DNA of 64,000 nt. Origin: the human T2T-CHM13v2.0 reference genome, Homo sapiens. The stretch lies in assembly GCA_009914755.4 (NCBI GenBank), contig CP068257.2, positions 32,128,001-32,192,000 on the forward strand. Direction: 5' to 3'. The notes under the pieces are model-generated. The model was not told where the DNA came from and made no database searches. It saw only the letters and a list, made by a program, of their open reading frames with translations. Positions 51,161-59,200 of the stretch are shown piece after piece (the stretch's first letter is position 1; every line of letters starts with the position of its first letter). Made by a program: the position numbers and the translations under genes.

Positions 51161-51390
51161 ACGAGCTCAGGAAAGGGACAAGCAGTGGCTGGAGCATGTG
51201 CAGCAGGAGGACGAGCATCAGAGACCAAGAAAACTCCACGAAGAGGAAAAACTGAAAAGGGAGGAGAGTGTCAAAAAGAAGGATGGCGAGGAAAAAGGCA
51301 AACAGGAAGCACAAGACAAGCTGGGTCGGCTTTTCCATCAACACCAAGAACCAGCTAAGCCAGCTGTCCAGGCACCCTGGTCCACTGCAG
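51161..51390 (+). CDS. ITSN1: ITSN1 coding exon (tent. exon 18), end of coiled-coil: (R)[76 protein letters not shown](E)
   Basis: Acceptor tgtttgttggcAG at 51159-51160, donor GTATTA at 51391. 230 nt, in frame with both neighbours. Confidence 0.88.
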
Positions 51391-52181: not shown

Positions 52182-53589
52182 TAATTTGCCTTTTTTTTTT
52201 AAAAAAGGGATAAATGAAAGACTGAACAAAAAGATAAATGAAAGACCAATCTAATCGGAATAGCTAGAAAAAGCTATCCTTTATAATATCTGATGTGAGC
52301 TAGAATGTATTTAAGATTCTTGTGTGGTTGTGTGATTGTACAGTTTTGCAAATAATGTTCAGTGGAAGCAAGTCATTGCTTTTTCTTTGTGTGGTAAATT
52401 ATACCAGTTTTGCTTGGTCATCCATGTGCTTCTTTAGTGCTTCAGTATACAGAAAGAAAAGAAAGAAAAAACACTTTCAAGCTATTCTGTAAAGGTTTAC
52501 TGGTCCCCAGCTACATAGTGGGCAGAGATGGGCGTGAGGTATGGAGTTGCATTAGGCACCTACCTGCCTTCAGATGCATGCAGTCCAGGGGAAAGACTGG
52601 CAGGTCATCAGACCTACAGAGTAGCAACCATGTCATAGGAGGGGCAAATTAATTTTTTGATAGTTTTTTTTTTAATCTGAAAATAATTTCACCATTGATC
52701 TTAGGAAGTTAGTTTAAGTTCTTCATGCGTCCTCCTAGTATAAGATGAGGATTTATTTTTCCCCTTCAGTCAGTAGGAAATCTTGCATGTCATACAGTTC
52801 AAAATCATGTGGAGATAATACTTCCCCCTCGTTGCTTTTCAGATAAGATAGGTATATGTCAAAATACTTGTAGCTCTTGAGTAAAAATGCCCAAAGGTCT
52901 GTTACTAGTTTTTGCTAACCAGAATCCAAAATATCCTCCGCTCATGTGCATTTTTAAACATTTTATTTCATGTAAAATCTAAATTATTTTCATCTAGGTT
53001 TCATCCTTAGGCTAATTATTTCCCAAAGAAATGTAGAGGAAGAGTGTCTTCATCGGGGATTATCAGTATAACCAAAATCAGCACTTAGTTTTTATATGAC
53101 CAGGTTAAAGAGCCTAAAACATCTGCATTTTCATGTTTCAGTATGGAAACTGGTGCCTCTGTTCCCTCCCAAACAAGTTGACTCCTTGGCTGATTCAGAC
53201 TTTGGGTCATATCCTAACTGCTACATTGTACTCAACACACTGGGTAGGGAGGAGGGCGGGTATTGATGCTTTACAGATCTGCACTGCTGGAGCCCAAGGA
53301 AAGAGGCAGAGACAAGGGACCTTTAGGCAGCCTCGCCGCACCCAGGCTTGGAGTGACCTTTGTTTAGAGAGAGTCACTAATGAACTCTCTCATGGGTTTT
53401 TGTTGCTGACGTCAGATTTGGCTGTGCTTTGGCATTCAGTATGTGTTTCAGAAATTCCTTGAATGGAGGGAAATAGTTCAGAGGTTAAGATAGGCAATAG
53501 AGGAGAGGTTAGTTGTTTGGCTTGTTGTCATACATTTGTGTTCTCTGTAATTATTTATTTTTGTCCCCCCCACCTTTTTTTGTAAACAG

Positions 53590-53711
53590 AAAAAGGTCCA
53601 CTTACCATTTCTGCACAGGAAAATGTAAAAGTGGTGTATTACCGGGCACTGTACCCCTTTGAATCCAGAAGCCATGATGAAATCACTATCCAGCCAGGAG
53701 ACATAGTCATG
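53590..53711 (+). CDS. ITSN1: ITSN1 coding exon (tent. exon 19), SH3A domain N-terminal half: (E)[40 protein letters not shown]
   Basis: Acceptor ttgtcccccccacctttttttgtaaacAG at 53588-53589, donor GTAAGA at 53712. ALYPFE…[11 protein letters not shown] is a canonical SH3 start (ALYDY-like motif). Confidence 0.9.
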
Positions 53712-54063
53712 GTAAGAAAGACTCCAGTGAGAGGGTCATTTCTGTTGAAGATTAGCCTCTGTCCTCTTTTTTTCACTTTATTCAACAATTGTGAGATTGT
53801 CAGTGAGTATGAAACCCAATAATCCAGCATCTAGATTTTTAAAGTATAAGCTCAATCTTCTTTCTTTTCTATTAAAATGAAAGATGGCATTTAAAAAAAT
53901 GTATCCTAACATCATTTTAAAATTGAGTTGATAAAGACAGTGTGTTCTTATTTTTAAATCTATAAATGTCTGATAATTTCAGAGTTTAGATTACTACTTA
54001 TATACTATGAGTATACATATATATGTAATACATATATTTTATATATGATGTATAGACAATATA

Positions 54064-54136
54064 TATACTAGTGTGCGTGTGTATATATATGTGTATGTAT
54101 AATATATACTAGTGTGCGTGTGTGTATATATGTACA
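54064..54136. repeat. TA/CA-rich low-complexity region containing a duplicated ~33-bp block (ATATATACTAGTGTGCGTGTGT(GT)ATATATATGT)
   Basis: Two copies, 54061-54092 and 54102-54136, read directly. Confidence 0.8.
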
Positions 54137-54594
54137 CATATATATACACACACAAAAGGATCCTCCAAGGTGGAAGGAGGCCAGGAGTCTTTAAGAAATA
54201 GTTATAAGTGCAAAACACTCTATCAAATCATTCTCATAATTGCAATAACTTTTGTATCTTTGCATCAAAGCATCTTTTTTCCCTTTAATTATGTGAACTT
54301 TTAATTATGTAAAAAGAGTAATGAATTATACAGTTAATCTGCTTTCCTACTTTGTAACAGAAAATAGTTTAGAATTTTGCTTTGTTATTGTTTCTTTCCT
54401 TGAACTAATAATCATTTTATGATGTGACTAAAACTATAGGAACCAGTTTAAGAAAGAAAATCAGACATGGTTGATCTAAATCATTTTCTAAAAGAAAATA
54501 GTAGTTCCTTGTTCTAGTTACTCTCTTTAGAGTCTTAGAAGTAGTCAACTCTGCATTACTCTTAACATTTTTTTTTTTTTTAAAGATAATTTAG

Positions 54595-54970
54595 ATTTTT
54601 TTTTTGTTGTGGTTGACACAAGTTCTCACTCTGTTGCCCAGGCTGGAGTGCAGTGGTGTGATATTGGCTCACTGCAACCTCTGCCTCCCTGCAACCTCTG
54701 CCTCCCTGCAACCTCTGCCTCCCTGCAACCTCTGCCTCCCTGCAACCTCTGCCTCCCGGGCTCAAGCAAAGCGATTCTCCCACCTCATCCTCCCAACTAG
54801 CTGGAACCACAGGCGTGCACCACCATGCCCAGCTAATTTTTGTAATTTTTATAGAGATAGGGTTTCTCCGTGTTGCCCAGGCTGGTCTTGAATTGCCTGG
54901 GCTCAAACGATCCTCCCAGGTCAGCCTCCCAAAGTGCTGAAATTACAGGCATGAGCCACCATGCCTGGCC
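54595..54970 (-). mobile_element. Alu SINE, antisense, carrying an internal 18-bp x5 tandem expansion
   Basis: T-rich start GTTGTGGTTGACACAAGTTCTCACTCTGTTGCCCAGGCTGGAGTGCAGTGG … (CTGCAACCTCTGCCTCCC)x5 … GAGCCACCATGCCTGGCC. Confidence 0.9.
54672..54761. repeat. Perfect 18-bp minisatellite (CTGCAACCTCTGCCTCCC) x5 inside an antisense Alu
   Basis: Five identical consecutive units (90 bp) read directly. Confidence 0.95.
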
Positions 54971-55264
54971 TAGAATTTGTAAAGAACTGTGAAAGTTAAC
55001 AATTGAAACAAACATGTTTCTTACCCAAGGACTGTATGTCTTTGAAGTATAAAGGGTGGTGTACAGGTGATTTTACTATTACTCATGCATTCATCTTGCC
55101 ATATACACATCATATCTGTGGATCTTTAATAGGCTAAAATACCTAGAAATAACAATATGTTTGGCACTTAGAGAAATGAATTCCTGTGTCCCCTTTTTTC
55201 CTAATAGCTGCTTTCTCTGTAATTACCATGGGCTAGAAGAAGCAAGGCCAAACATCCCAAATTA

Positions 55265-55478
55265 TTTTTTCTTTTTTTTGAGACAGGGTCTCACTCTGTC
55301 ACCTAGGCCAGAGTGCAGTGGCATGATCTTGGCTCACTGCAGTTTCCACCTCCCAGGCTCAAGTGATCCTCCTGCCTCAGCCTCCTGAGTAGCTCAGAGG
55401 CGTGTGCCACCACACCGAGCTAATTTTTATTTTTTTACATTTTGTAGAGACAGAGTCTCCCTATGTTGCCCAGGCTCC
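55265..55478 (-). mobile_element. Alu SINE, antisense, truncated
   Basis: T-rich start GAGACAGGGTCTCACTCTGTCACCTAGGCCAGAGTGCAGTGGCATG … TTGTAGAGACAGAGTCTCCCTATGTTGCCCAGGCTCCAG. Confidence 0.85.
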
Positions 55479-56196
55479 AGATCTTTAAAAGTTAAAATCA
55501 CCTTAACAGTAGCAAAAACCTCTTCAAGTATACTCCATGGCTTCATTCAGCACACAGTTATTGACTGAAACATGCTGGGTGCCAGCCTTACTCATCCTTT
55601 ACAGAAAGAACTGTTGGTTTGGGCATGCCACTCTGTACACACAAATGGTAACTTGAGCCAGCGGGGTGTGTTTCTGTCAGCTTTCCTCTGACTTCACCAC
55701 CTGCTGTTTCCTACACCGTGGTTTCTGATAGCCTGAAGCTACTTTACTCATACTGCCTCATATTTGAAGTAGTGTATCCTGTAAAGCAGATTAATTGTAA
55801 AATATGTAAACACCATATAATAGGAATCTAAAATTTCTGAAAATACAATGTCACATCAGTGAGGACCTCATTACAATTTTTTTTTTAATGTTAAACAAAC
55901 CAGCCTAATATTTTTGAAACTGGATTTTGTTGCAACACAAGGTGCAGAGAAGCAGCTCGCTCTCATCCTAAAGTAAGGGAATGTTATGAAATGTGATGAT
56001 GAGGAAATGTTGCAGGTGATCTGTATCTTAATGAGAAAGTGTTGCTCTTTTTCGGGAACATATCTGGGCTTCACTTGTAATCCTAGGCCTGTTGAAACCT
56101 TTTCCTCGAATTGGCTAGTTAACCACCAGCTTGATGAGATGCGTAGAGTTTAGATATGCTGTAAGAATAAAGCATGTCATTAAACATATATTTTGC

Positions 56197-56220
56197 CTTG
56201 CTTTCAAACCTTTGCTTTCC
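56197..56220 (+). promoter_or_regulatory. ITSN1: Two UUGCUUUC (UGC-containing) motifs in the polypyrimidine tract 15 and 29 nt upstream of the microexon 3' splice site; putative SRRM4/nSR100-type neural microexon enhancer
   Basis: ccTTGCTTTCaaaccTTTGCTTTCctggtggAG|GTT; UGC at 56199-56201 and 56213-56215. A GCATG pentamer sits at 56172-56176. Confidence 0.5.
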
Positions 56221-56228
56221 TGGTGGAG

Positions 56229-56243
56229 GTTAAAGGGGAATGG
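56229..56243 (+). CDS. ITSN1: ITSN1 15-nt neuron-specific microexon (exon 20) inserting VKGEW into SH3A: GTTAAAGGGGAATGG
   Basis: Acceptor ctttgctttcctggtggAG at 56227-56228, donor GTAAGT at 56244 (perfect consensus). Phase 0 on both sides. VKGEW follows …DIVM in the neuronal ITSN1 isoform (…IVMVKGEWVDESQTGEPGW…). Confidence 0.9.
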
Positions 56244-59200
56244 GTAAGTGTTGCCTAACTGTCAGGAAGTCTGCATCTTATTCAATGTTTTGTCCTTTTA
56301 AGTCACTTGAATTCTGTGTAAGTACACGTATCTCTGGGTGTTGTTGCGGCAGTAAAAATGTGTTTGAGTCTGTGTAGTAGGTTGTGCTTTTTAAAAAAAA
56401 AGTAAGTCGTAAGTCTTCTCAGTTTGTGTACTGGGTTTCTTTTTGTTAGATTCCTTTTAAGGACTAACTTGAATGCTCTGTGTTTGGCAAGGGATTAGGT
56501 CAAGTCTCCATCTCAGGCCATAGACAAAAAGGAGTTCCAAGTAGATTAAACATAAAAGATAAAATTCTGGGAAAAAAATTTTTTTAAGCAGACTATTGGA
56601 ATAATTTTCTGGCTAAGAAAGGCCTTTTGAAGCTATAAAAACCAGAAGTCGTTAAGAGGCAAAAATGGACAGTCAACAATATGCAAAAATTAAAATGTCT
56701 ATGTTTCAAAATATATGAGACCAAGGGTTACATAAAGGGTTACCCCTGTTACATAAAGATTCCGAACAGTTCACTTTGAAAGACACCCACAAGCCTTAAA
56801 CAATTGGCAGAGGGTGGGAAGGGACATTCACAGATGAAGTAAAAAGTCAGTTATTTAAAAAATACATGAAAAGATGCTTAGCTTCTTGGGTGATCAGAAA
56901 AATGCAAGTTATAAAACAAAATAGCATTGTTCCTCTGTCAAATGAGCAAGTTTAAAAGTCTGGTAATATCCAGCTTTGTCAAGAGTATAGGACAGTGGAT
57001 ATAATATACATTGTTAGCATGGTTGTATAAATTGGTTAAGCGATTTGGAAGGCAATTTGGCAGTGCCTGTTTAGATTTAAAATTCTCGTTCCCTCTGCCC
57101 CAGAAATTCTATTTTTCTCCTTCCTCTCATTCTTCTCCTTCCTCTTTTGGGCACATGCACAAATATGTGTGTACATGGATGTTCACTGCAGTGGTGTTGG
57201 TAAAAGCAAATAAACAGCCCAATGTCCATCAGTAAAGGGATGGCTTAAATAAATTATGATACAGCTAAAAAATACAATGAAGATTAAAACTTATGTAGAT
57301 CACATATACACATAAGATTTCCATCAAAAAAGCAGAATATGTGCAGCATAATTGCATTTTGGTTCGAAATAAAACTATATATGTATTCATGTGTTTATGT
57401 ATAGTTAACAGTTTTGAAATATATATATCAAACTGTTAACAATGGTTACCACTGGGCAGTAAAGAAGGGGCTTTCGTGTTGAATTTTATAGACTTCTATG
57501 TTATTTTCATTTTTATAAATGTATCTAATTTGTAATTTTTAATAAAACAAAATAAATTCAAGGACAAGTATATTAGAGAGTATCTACTCAGGACTGTAAT
57601 AATGTTTATTATATCTCAGACCTCCCAAATATGTAATGAAATGTAGAATGTACTACTAGGCATAATTCGTTGGCTTGCAGAAGGGACAGCAGTGTTTCGA
57701 TTTTGTACTACAAAATGCATTGTGATACTCCAGGTGCCATTCAGCTGTGTTATCTTTGTGAGGATAACAGTCAATGCAAAAAGATAGATATTGACATCTA
57801 ATAGCAACAGGTTTGTATTTTTTTAATTTCATGAATTTTGCAGTTAACAAATGATGAGCATGAGACATGTAGTACAACATTACTGTCAGTCTCCCTAGGT
57901 TGAAAAATCCGGGGTTCACTTATACTTTTGTGGGCACAGTCATCAGATTCTCAGATTCCTCAAACGTCTTTGGGACATAGCTTACTATAATATGTTCGAT
58001 TTTTAGAAGTCTAACATTGTGACAGTGTTTTTTAATGTAGGCAGTCTTAGCCTTAAAAATATTTTGTTTTTAGAAAAACTTAGCCTGGTTTTATCCAAAA
58101 CTATAATTTTTCATGTTTAACAAAAATTTAATGTGGTACCTTGTATATAGCACTATTCTCAGCACTGTAGATAATAGAAAATTATCAAGTCTGCCATTCA
58201 TATGTTTAAAATCTTTTTAGAAAAATCTAGAGAAACACATGAAAAGGCCAACATGTGATGAAGTTCTCAATAAACATTCACTAACTCTGCTAGGAATTTA
58301 AAAGAGGAGAGGAATCAGTGTAAAGTGATGTGCTCAGGGAAGACCAAATGCTTTCAATTGAGTCTGACCTTGATGGCTAAGGCTTAGATGCGTAGAAAAT
58401 ACATGGCCTCTCTTGATCTGGAACTCCCAATACTTGGAGGGTGAATTAAATCAAATTTGACATCCGTAACATGTTAGTAGAACATAAGAAATGAGAAGAC
58501 CTATGCTCACTGCTGTTTTGTTGAAGTTTATCTTGAGAACACAGGCTGAGTGTCTAAATCAGTACAATCTTTTGGCTTTCATGGGCCACATTGCAAGAAT
58601 TGTCTTAGGCTGCACATAAAATACACTAACACTAATAATAGCTGATGAACTTCAAAAAAAAGCTTGCAAAAAAAACTCATAATGTTTTAAGAAAGCTTAC
58701 GAATTTGTGTTGGGCCTCATTAAAAGCTGTCCTGGGCCACATGCAGCCAGTGGGTTGCGGGTTGGACAAGCTTGGTTTAAATGCTTATCCTTGGACTGGT
58801 ACAGGCCTGAATGCATCCAGATTGCTGAGGGAGCTTCCAAAAAATAACCATGCCAGGGCTCATCCCCAGAGATTCTGAGAACTCTACTGCATATACAGCC
58901 TTCAGAAGTCTGACCAGGTGGTTCTGTTAGGTAGTCAATTTCAGGAACCGCTGATCTAACCTAATCTCTTTTTCACGTCAGGACTAATCCTAAATCATTT
59001 CTAGAAAATATCCTCTTAAAAATATCCAAAGAAGAATGGACTTCTTTAGTAGTTATCAGTCATTAGCCAGTCAGTTCATTCTGGAAATTGTTTGTCTTAG
59101 TGTTACTCTTATAACAATTTTTAACTCATTCTTTTCCTTTTCTTCTCCTGACAGACATTTTTTTAAATGTAGCCAACAATACCTTTTTCCTCTACCTTCC

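What the first reader, a model, noticed from the sequence alone, without database searches (positions are those of the whole stretch)
56172..56250. 15-nt neuron-specific microexon (VKGEW) with paired UUGCUUUC motifs and a perfect GTAAGT donor
GTTAAAGGGGAATGG (56229-56243) is a phase-0 5-codon exon that fits between …DIVM and the downstream VDESQTGEPGW… exon, which was not found in this window. It has the hallmarks described for SRRM4/nSR100- and SRSF11-dependent neural microexons. The donor GTAAGT is consensus. The acceptor is weak (GGTGGAG|G), with a short pyrimidine tract carrying two UGC motifs at -15 and -29, duplicated as TTGCTTTC. There is a GCATG pentamer 53 nt upstream. This exon is known (ITSN1 exon 20 changes SH3A binding specificity), so it is not novel. 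It is still the most functionally loaded 15 nt in the window and a convenient test case for microexon regulatory grammar.
Basis: partly seen in the sequence, partly recalled or inferred. Interest (0 to 1): 0.6.

Follow-up and report, generated by a model that had tools for sequence, protein, structure and literature searches.

The report
Known neuronal ITSN1 15-nt microexon

Summary
GTTAAAGGGGAATGG (56229-56243, +) encodes VKGEW, follows a weak GAG acceptor, and precedes a GTAAGT donor. It lies 2.5 kb downstream of the ITSN1 SH3A exon that ends ...DIVM (53590-53711). The next exon is absent from the window and is expected about 770 nt past its end.

- There are three upstream UGCs (U at -35, -30, -16), not two.
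- Only the proximal UGC is invariant in the three other vertebrate lineages I recovered.
- The GCATG at -57 is lost in all three and sits on the non-activating side, so it is probably chance.
- No UCUC-type motif supports the SRSF11 claim in this sequence.

Published work already covers the proposed tests:
- Neuron-specific "microexon 20" in the n-Src loop (Tsyba 2008, Dergai 2010, via PMC3645719).
- Strong dependence on nSR100 in knockout mice (PMC4387716).
- Dose-dependent inclusion by SRRM4 in HEK293 cells. A +3 A>G donor mutation abolishes the response (bioRxiv 10.1101/2024.09.17.613571).
- SHAPE/DMS structure probing (PMC12871342).
- CRISPR deletion in zebrafish (PMC12626424).

An internal AG (56234-5) gives a known frameshifting 8-nt variant.

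Verdict: correct identification, already known, low interest.

The parts
51336..51390 (+). 3' part of the preceding ITSN1 coding exon (…[18 protein letters not shown], plus the first base of the Glu codon)
   Evidence: tblastn and six-frame match to P0002, 100% over 18 aa
53590..53711 (+). ITSN1 exon 19, the first half of the SH3A domain. It encodes (E)[40 protein letters not shown], ends in phase 0, and has donor GTAAGA.
   Evidence: SH3 Pfam match and PDB 6h5t alignment
56178..56185 (+). Candidate branch-point region CAUUAAAC, with the A about 45-46 nt upstream of the exon. This is inferred, not shown.
   Evidence: Identical in L013. L015 has UAUUAAC, a 6/7 match to UACUAAC, at about -43. 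It lies just inside the 54-nt AG-free zone. Median predicted branch-point distance for neural microexons is 45 nt (PMC12871342).
56190..56221 (+). Pyrimidine tract carrying three UGC motifs (TGC at 56194, 56199, 56213), including the duplicated TTGCTTTC (56198-56205 and 56212-56219). Proposed SRRM3/4 enhancer.
   Evidence: The proximal UGC is invariant in 4 lineages, the middle one in 3 of 4, and the distal one in 2 of 4. The most conserved 50-nt window between the primate and L013 sequences is 56196-56245, at 96%.
56222..56228 (+). Purine-rich spacer plus weak acceptor GGTGGAG|, with G at -3
   Evidence: Conserved as TGGTGGAG, TGTTGGAG, TGCTGGAG or TGGTGAAG.
56229..56243 (+). 15-nt microexon GTTAAAGGGGAATGG encoding VKGEW (ITSN1 microexon 20; VastDB HsaEX0032608)
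   Evidence: literature
56234..56243 (+). Internal alternative acceptor AG (56234-5) followed by the 8-nt exon variant GGGAATGG (56236-56243). It shifts the frame and gives a stop after 18 codons.
   Evidence: The tail of P0002, GNGWMKAKLENPAGLEEN*, equals the predicted frameshift product. The VastDB coordinate string lists both acceptors, 33802430+33802437.
56244..56249 (+). Consensus 5' splice site GTAAGT
   Evidence: Published MaxEnt score 10.24. A +3 A>G change lowers it to 8.73 and abolishes the SRRM4 response. L013/L014 carry GTGAGT.
56250..56390 (+). Conserved downstream intronic flank
   Evidence: 84-88% identity to L013 against a 68% background. Conserved to +46 in L001, where it is part of the only conserved island in a 6.4-kb intron.
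56172..56176 (+). GCATG pentamer. Present, but probably not functional.
   Evidence: Not conserved: AACATC in L013 and absent in L001 and L015. About 12% chance of one in any 100 nt. No TGCATG within 400 nt.

Best explanation
This is ITSN1 microexon 20, a 15-nt, phase-0 cassette exon in a primate (apparently human) ITSN1 locus. Including it inserts VKGEW into the n-Src loop of the SH3A domain.

Outside neurons the exon is skipped. It is too short for ordinary exon definition, and its 3' splice site is poor. That site has G at -3, a purine-rich spacer before the AG, a pyrimidine tract interrupted by G, and a branch point probably about 45 nt away.

In neurons, SRRM4 and SRRM3 bind the UGC-containing tract between the branch point and the AG. 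Through their eMIC domain they promote early spliceosome (A complex) assembly on the upstream 3' splice site. The strong GTAAGT donor recruits U1 and is needed for this response.

The resulting neuronal protein has shifted SH3A ligand preferences, with more binding to dynamin 1 and less to SOS and Cbl.

Shown here: the anatomy, the reading frame, the gene identity, and the conservation of the exon, the proximal UGC, the weak acceptor and the donor.
Taken from papers: neural specificity, SRRM4 dependence, the donor requirement, and the binding changes.
Inferred: the branch-point position, and which UGC is the operative one.
For: Sequence anatomy.

Gene identity. PDB 6h5t aligns with a gap of exactly the five residues VKGEW.

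Orthologues recovered from public assemblies:
- L013/L014: VKGEW, donor GTGAGT, about 70% intronic identity to the window. This fits the artiodactyl state described in the preprint.
- L001-L007: VKREW. The microexon sits in the only conserved island (window 56190-56289, 82% identity) in a 6.4-kb intron.
- L015-L018: VKGEW encoded by GTGAAAGGGGAGTGG, with flanking introns of about 200 and 400 nt.

Peak conservation against L013 is at 56196-45, 96% versus a 68% background. UGC density is enriched upstream of the acceptor (P=0.014).

Literature:
- PMC3645719: microexon 20, n-Src loop, neuron-specific, conserved from human to zebrafish.
- PMC4387716: the exon is 'strongly regulated by nSR100' in knockout mouse brain.
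- 10.1101/2024.09.17.613571: endogenous PSI of 0, 1.1, 17 and 76-82 with rising SRRM4. The minigene goes from 21 to 93 with SRRM4. The +3 A>G donor mutant goes from 0.2 to 0. The SRRM3 eMIC domain raises the A/H complex ratio about 2.5-fold.
- PMC12626424: zebrafish itsn1 microexon deletion lengthens neurites.
Against: - Nothing contradicts the identification.
- Only one of the three UGCs is invariant, so the 'paired motif' grammar is not the conserved unit.
- The preprint reports that UGC motifs facilitate SRRM4 action but are not strictly required, and it classes this exon as low-sensitivity.
- Per-UGC mutagenesis values for this exon were not in the text I could read.
- The window's exon19-to-microexon distance is 17 nt longer than the hg38 coordinates imply. 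The sequence is therefore not identical to hg38.
Confidence: 0.95

Rival explanations
1. Neural inclusion is set mainly by relief of PTBP1 repression of the CU-rich upstream tract as PTBP1 falls during neuronal differentiation. SRRM4 would then be secondary.
For: The tract from 56190 to 56221 is pyrimidine-rich. PTBP1 knockdown raises inclusion of most responsive microexons (PMC4317164). nSR100 is described as counteracting PTBP1 (PMC10551640).
Against: SRRM4 expression alone takes the endogenous exon from PSI 0 to about 80 in HEK293, where PTBP1 is presumably still expressed. Loss of nSR100 strongly reduces inclusion in mouse brain. No classic UCUU or CUCUCU motifs are present in the primate tract. 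PTBP1 is at most a contributor.
Confidence: 0.15
2. The GCATG at 56172-6 is an RBFOX site that regulates the exon.
For: GCAUG is present 53-57 nt upstream. RBFOX proteins regulate many microexons (PMC4317164).
Against: It is AGCAUG rather than UGCAUG. It is replaced by AACATC in L013 and absent in L001 and L015. The RBFOX motif enrichment linked to microexon inclusion is downstream of the exon, not upstream. About 12% chance of one occurring per 100 nt. There is no TGCATG within 400 nt.
Confidence: 0.04
3. The 15-mer is a chance AG…GT pseudo-exon with no function.
For: AG-N15-GTAAGT occurs 3 times on this strand of the window, including a non-conserved one 60 nt downstream at 56303.
Against: The coding sequence is exactly or nearly conserved in three other vertebrate lineages with conserved flanks. 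There is also extensive experimental literature.
Confidence: 0.01

Closest known systems
ITSN1 microexon 20 (VastDB HsaEX0032608; Tsyba 2008, Dergai 2010)
   Same: It is the same object. It has the same flanking exons, the same 15 nt encoding VKGEW, and the same position in the SH3A n-Src loop. The donor is the same, and both acceptors match the VastDB record (15-nt and 8-nt forms).
   Different: Intron 19 up to the microexon is 17 nt longer than the hg38 coordinates quoted in the preprint supplement. That is exactly one unit of the 17-nt tandem repeat at 54668-54757. This points to another haplotype or assembly, or a close primate.
SRRM3/4 (eMIC)-dependent neural microexons in general
   Same: Length of 27 nt or less and frame-preserving. 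UGC between the branch point and the AG. A weak 3' splice site with a shifted pyrimidine tract, a strong 5' splice site, highly conserved intronic flanks, and a location in a protein-interaction domain.
   Different: It is classed as low-sensitivity, needing high SRRM4 levels. It carries three UGCs, of which only one is deeply conserved. It has G at -3 and a competing internal AG 7 nt downstream.
c-Src N1 microexon (18 nt, n-Src loop of the Src SH3 domain)
   Same: A neuron-specific microexon inserting residues into the n-Src loop of an SH3 domain and shifting ligand specificity towards dynamin 1. Dergai 2010 treats the two exons together.
   Different: A different gene and a different exon sequence and length. 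The regulation of N1 was not examined here.

Membership tests
ITSN1 microexon 20 | Lies in the intron between the two SH3A-coding exons of ITSN1 (…DIVM | VDESQ…) | tested here: met
   The upstream exon is at 53590-53711. The downstream exon is outside the window and is expected about 770 nt beyond it from the published coordinates. In orthologous loci L001 and L015 both flanking exons bracket the microexon.
ITSN1 microexon 20 | A 15-nt, in-frame exon encoding VKGEW inside the SH3 domain | tested here: met
   The gap against PDB 6h5t is exactly the five residues VKGEW.
SRRM3/4-dependent neural microexon | Length 3-27 nt and frame-preserving | tested here: met
   15 nt, phase 0
SRRM3/4-dependent neural microexon | A UGC motif between the branch point and the 3' splice-site AG | tested here: met
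   TGC at -35, -30 and -16, all within a 54-nt AG-free zone. The proximal one is invariant in 4 lineages. The branch-point position is only inferred.
SRRM3/4-dependent neural microexon | A weak 3' splice site with a displaced pyrimidine tract, and a strong 5' splice site | tested here: met
   G at -3, purine-rich from -9 to -3, and a pyrimidine tract from -39 to -10. GTAAGT donor, with a published MaxEnt score of 10.24. No MaxEnt 3' score was computed here.
SRRM3/4-dependent neural microexon | Strong conservation of the intronic flanks | tested here: met
   96% in 56196-56245 against a 68% background versus L013. It is the only conserved island in the 6.4-kb intron of L001.
SRRM3/4-dependent neural microexon | Neural-specific inclusion that responds to SRRM4 gain or loss | not testable with these tools
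   No expression data are available here. Published evidence comes from knockout mouse, an SRRM4 dose series and minigene in HEK293, and zebrafish.
SRSF11/RNPS1 co-activated microexon | A U/C-rich (UCUC-type) element upstream of the UGC, and dependence on SRSF11. The motif definition is recalled from Gonatopoulos-Pournatzis 2018, which I could not read. | tested here: inconclusive
   The primate tract is CU-rich but has no UCUC or CUCU. L015 has CCTCTTTCTC. No SRSF11 data for this exon were found.
RBFOX-activated exon | A conserved (U)GCAUG, typically in the downstream intron | tested here: not met
   The only GCATG is upstream, is not UGCAUG, and is not conserved.

The most novel reading that the evidence does not exclude
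The two acceptors 7 nt apart (GAG|G at 56228/9 and AAG|G at 56235/6) might act as a built-in switch between a productive and an unproductive transcript. Activation of the 3' splice-site region would then yield either the in-frame 15-nt neuronal isoform or an 8-nt frameshifted transcript with a premature stop. The ratio of the two would tune ITSN1 dosage. The conserved purine spacer UGGUGG and the weak -3 G would be kept to balance that choice.

The evidence does not exclude this. However, the internal AG is forced by Lys-Gly/Arg coding (AAR followed by GGN/AGG), so its conservation needs no regulatory explanation.
Probability: 0.07. Interest if true: 0.3.

Novelty: already known. Interest (0 to 1): 0.1.

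Why it matters
The exon matters biologically. Five residues in an SH3 n-Src loop redirect an endocytic scaffold encoded on chromosome 21 towards dynamin 1 in neurons. It is also a model substrate for how SRRM3/4 define very short exons.

All of this is already in the literature, including the donor dependence, the response to SRRM4 and the eMIC domain, structure probing, and an animal deletion. The present finding therefore adds no new biology.

What it does provide is a positive control for the scan, showing that a reader without tools can identify a real 15-nt exon. It also yields three refinements:
- Only the proximal UGC is deeply conserved.
- The GCATG is not conserved.
- The 8-nt variant arises from an AG that the coding sequence forces.

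Tried and rejected
- Protein search with exon 19 plus VKGEW. It returned only 12 short gene-caller fragments and no full-length ITSN1, so isoform distribution across annotated proteins could not be surveyed.
- The look-up of encoding contigs for P0002, to fetch human chromosome 21 DNA. It is not on record, so neither the species or assembly of the window nor the downstream exon could be checked directly.
- A fuzzy-regex scan of the loci timed out and was replaced by blastn.
- Contigs L009-L012 end before the microexon, so they were uninformative.
- L008 holds both flanking exons but no microexon. Smith-Waterman alignment against shuffled controls showed no significant relic (P=0.08-0.58), so my first impression of a degenerate copy at L008:1281-1318 was rejected.
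- RNA structure. A hairpin pairing the pyrimidine/UGC tract with the purine-rich exon is predicted, but z is only -1.79 and there is almost no covariation. Published probing found no support for covariation-maintained structures around these microexons. It is not pursued as a mechanism.
- Rfam scan of 53000-58000 found nothing. ORFs on both strands around the exon are short and unremarkable.
- Irimia 2014 (PMC4390143) is not held. Gonatopoulos-Pournatzis 2018 has no PMC id. The SRSF11 claim therefore could not be checked.
Full report
**1. The observation**

Direct reading of the window confirms every coordinate.
- GTTAAAGGGGAATGG occupies 56229-56243 on the + strand and translates to VKGEW.
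- It is preceded by CTGGTGGAG| (AG at 56227-8, G at -3) and followed by GTAAGT (56244-9).
- TTGCTTTC occurs at 56198 and 56212.
- GCATG is at 56172-6.
- The upstream exon ends ...GACATAGTCATG|GTAAGA at 53711. It translates to [40 protein letters not shown] and ends on a codon boundary.

The U residues of the three UGCs are at -35, -30 and -16.

The window carries 27 Alu-like heads and has 38.9% G+C, so it is primate DNA.

**2. Is it more than chance?**

The bare splice-site frame is not rare. AG-N15-GTAAGT occurs three times on this strand. One is a non-conserved example 60 nt downstream at 56303.

Three or more TGC in the 38 nt before an AG is found at 1.4% of AGs in the window, or 3.1% of AGs with a comparable AG-free zone. 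Two TTGCTTTC copies 14 nt apart are unexpected, given six copies in 64 kb.

A GCATG within 100 nt has about a 12% chance of occurring.

These statistics are suggestive only. Identity and conservation settle the matter.

**3. Identity**

- The database search with exon 19 plus VKGEW returned NCBI 'intersectin 1, partial [Homo sapiens]' (P0002) and exon fragments from other vertebrates.
- The preceding exon (…[18 protein letters not shown]) is at 51336-51390.
- The spliced product matches Pfam SH3 models with and without the insert.
- It aligns to PDB 6h5t (Intersectin-1) with a gap of exactly the five residues VKGEW.
- Only the ubiquitous form appears to have a solved structure.

**4. Comparative evidence gathered here**

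Contigs that encode the exon-19 fragments gave three further lineages holding the microexon. The source species are unknown.

| Loci | Peptide | Notes |
|---|---|---|
| L013/L014 | VKGEW | Donor GTGAGT. Introns about 70% identical to the window, so a placental mammal. |
| L001-L007 | VKREW (GTTAAAAGGGAATGG) | Donor GTAAGT. |
| L015-L018 | VKGEW (GTGAAAGGGGAGTGG) | Donor GTAAGT. Flanking introns of only about 200 and 400 nt, probably a teleost. |

The preprint cited below reports the +3 A>G donor state in pig, cow and dolphin. L013/L014 are therefore probably artiodactyl.

Conservation results:
- In L001 the microexon island (window 56190-56289, 82% identity) is the only block conserved with the primate sequence in a 6.4-kb intron.
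- Against L013, the most conserved 50-nt window of a 1.5-kb alignment is 56196-56245. It is 96% identical, against 68% overall.
- Invariant across all four lineages are the exon (apart from synonymous changes and Gly/Arg), the GT[A/G]AGT donor, the weak acceptor context UG[G/U/C]UG[G/A]AG, and the proximal UGC.
- The middle UGC is replaced by CCUCUUUCUC in L015.
- The distal UGC is lost in L013 and L015.
- GCATG is lost in all three other lineages.

**5. Mechanism**

The anatomy fits the published architecture of SRRM3/4-dependent microexons.
- A candidate branch point, CAUUAAAC, lies about 45 nt upstream. It is conserved, and L015 has UAUUAAC. This position is inferred.
- It is followed by a pyrimidine tract interrupted by UGCs.
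- A purine-rich spacer then leads into a poor GAG acceptor.
- The exon itself is a 15-nt purine-rich stretch.
- The donor is consensus.

Published experiments on this exon:
- It is neuron-specific 'microexon 20' in the SH3A n-Src loop. It is conserved from human to zebrafish, lowers SOS and Cbl binding, and raises dynamin 1 binding (PMC3645719).
- It is 'strongly regulated by nSR100' in knockout mouse brain (PMC4387716).
- In HEK293 cells the endogenous PSI rises from 0 to 1.1, 17 and 76-82 with increasing SRRM4.
- A minigene goes from 21% to 93% inclusion with SRRM4. A +3 A>G donor mutation (MaxEnt 10.24 to 8.73) gives 0% with or without SRRM4.
- The SRRM3 eMIC domain raises A-complex formation about 2.5-fold.
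- These last four results are from bioRxiv 10.1101/2024.09.17.613571.

That study classes the exon as low-sensitivity. It also reports that UGC motifs strongly facilitate SRRM4 action but are not strictly required.

The pre-mRNA has been probed by SHAPE and DMS in human and chicken (PMC12871342). The zebrafish exon has been deleted by CRISPR, which increased neurite length (PMC12626424).

**6.

- GCATG is probably a chance occurrence. It is not conserved, it is not UGCAUG, and it is upstream. The RBFOX motif enrichment at microexons is downstream (PMC4317164).
- The duplicated octamer is not the conserved unit.
- SRSF11 dependence is unsupported. There is no UCUC in the primate tract, and I found no data for this exon.
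- The suggested tests have essentially been done. These were tissue junction reads, SRRM4 perturbation, and UGC mutagenesis. This exon was in the mutagenesis library, although its per-variant values were not in the text I could read.

**7. Extra detail**

The AG at 56234-5 inside the exon is a second acceptor that gives an 8-nt exon, GGGAATGG.
- The C-terminal tail of P0002, GNGWMKAKLENPAGLEEN, is exactly the frameshifted translation of exon 19 plus these 8 nt plus the next exon, ending at a stop.
- The VastDB coordinate string in the preprint's supplement lists both acceptors, 33802430+33802437.
- The internal AG is forced by Lys-Gly/Arg coding, so its conservation needs no regulatory explanation.

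The same coordinates put the downstream exon 8,531 nt after the microexon, about 770 nt beyond the window's end.

They also show that the window's exon19-to-microexon distance is 17 nt longer than in hg38. That equals one unit of the 17-nt tandem repeat at 54668-54757.

**8. Verdict**

The object is already known and intensively studied, so interest is low.

Noticed in passing
window 54668-54757: A 17-nt tandem repeat, CTCCCTGCAACCTCTGC, with 5.3 copies at 98% match. The unit resembles an Alu-internal segment. One unit equals the 17-nt excess of the window's exon19-to-microexon distance (2518) over the hg38 coordinates quoted in a preprint supplement (2501). This suggests a copy-number difference from hg38.
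   Followed up: partly
window 56234-56243: An internal AG inside the microexon gives an 8-nt frameshifting exon variant. The NCBI human partial protein P0002 is its product. The preprint's supplementary tables (VastDB event entry) list this event with length 8 even though the library construct used 15 nt.
   Followed up: yes
window 56301-56323: A second in-frame AG-N15-GTAAGT unit (TCACTTGAATTCTGT, SLEFC) lies 60 nt downstream of the real microexon. Both of its splice sites are lost in L013 (AAAT and GTAAAT), so it is probably a chance pseudo-exon.
   Followed up: yes
window 55902-55951: An intronic block about 300 nt upstream of the microexon is 92% identical to L013, against a 68% background. 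It is not detected in L001. Its function is unknown.
   Followed up: no
L008:694-2862: An ITSN1 locus from an unidentified species. It has both SH3A exons, and its downstream exon resembles my from-memory (unverified) human ITSN1 sequence more closely than L001's does. Its intron is only 2.2 kb and has no microexon and no significant relic. This may be a lineage-specific loss or a paralogue.
   Followed up: partly
window 56192-56246: A predicted hairpin pairs the pyrimidine/UGC tract with the purine-rich acceptor and exon (MFE z = -1.79). The pairs are mostly invariant or G-U, with almost no covariation.
   Followed up: partly
window 54012-54152: A (TA)n microsatellite and TG/TA-rich repeats in intron 19. 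This is another likely source of length polymorphism.
   Followed up: no
PDB search with the spliced SH3A: Only the SH3A form lacking VKGEW (6h5t) was found among solved structures. No entry contains the neuronal insert.
   Followed up: no
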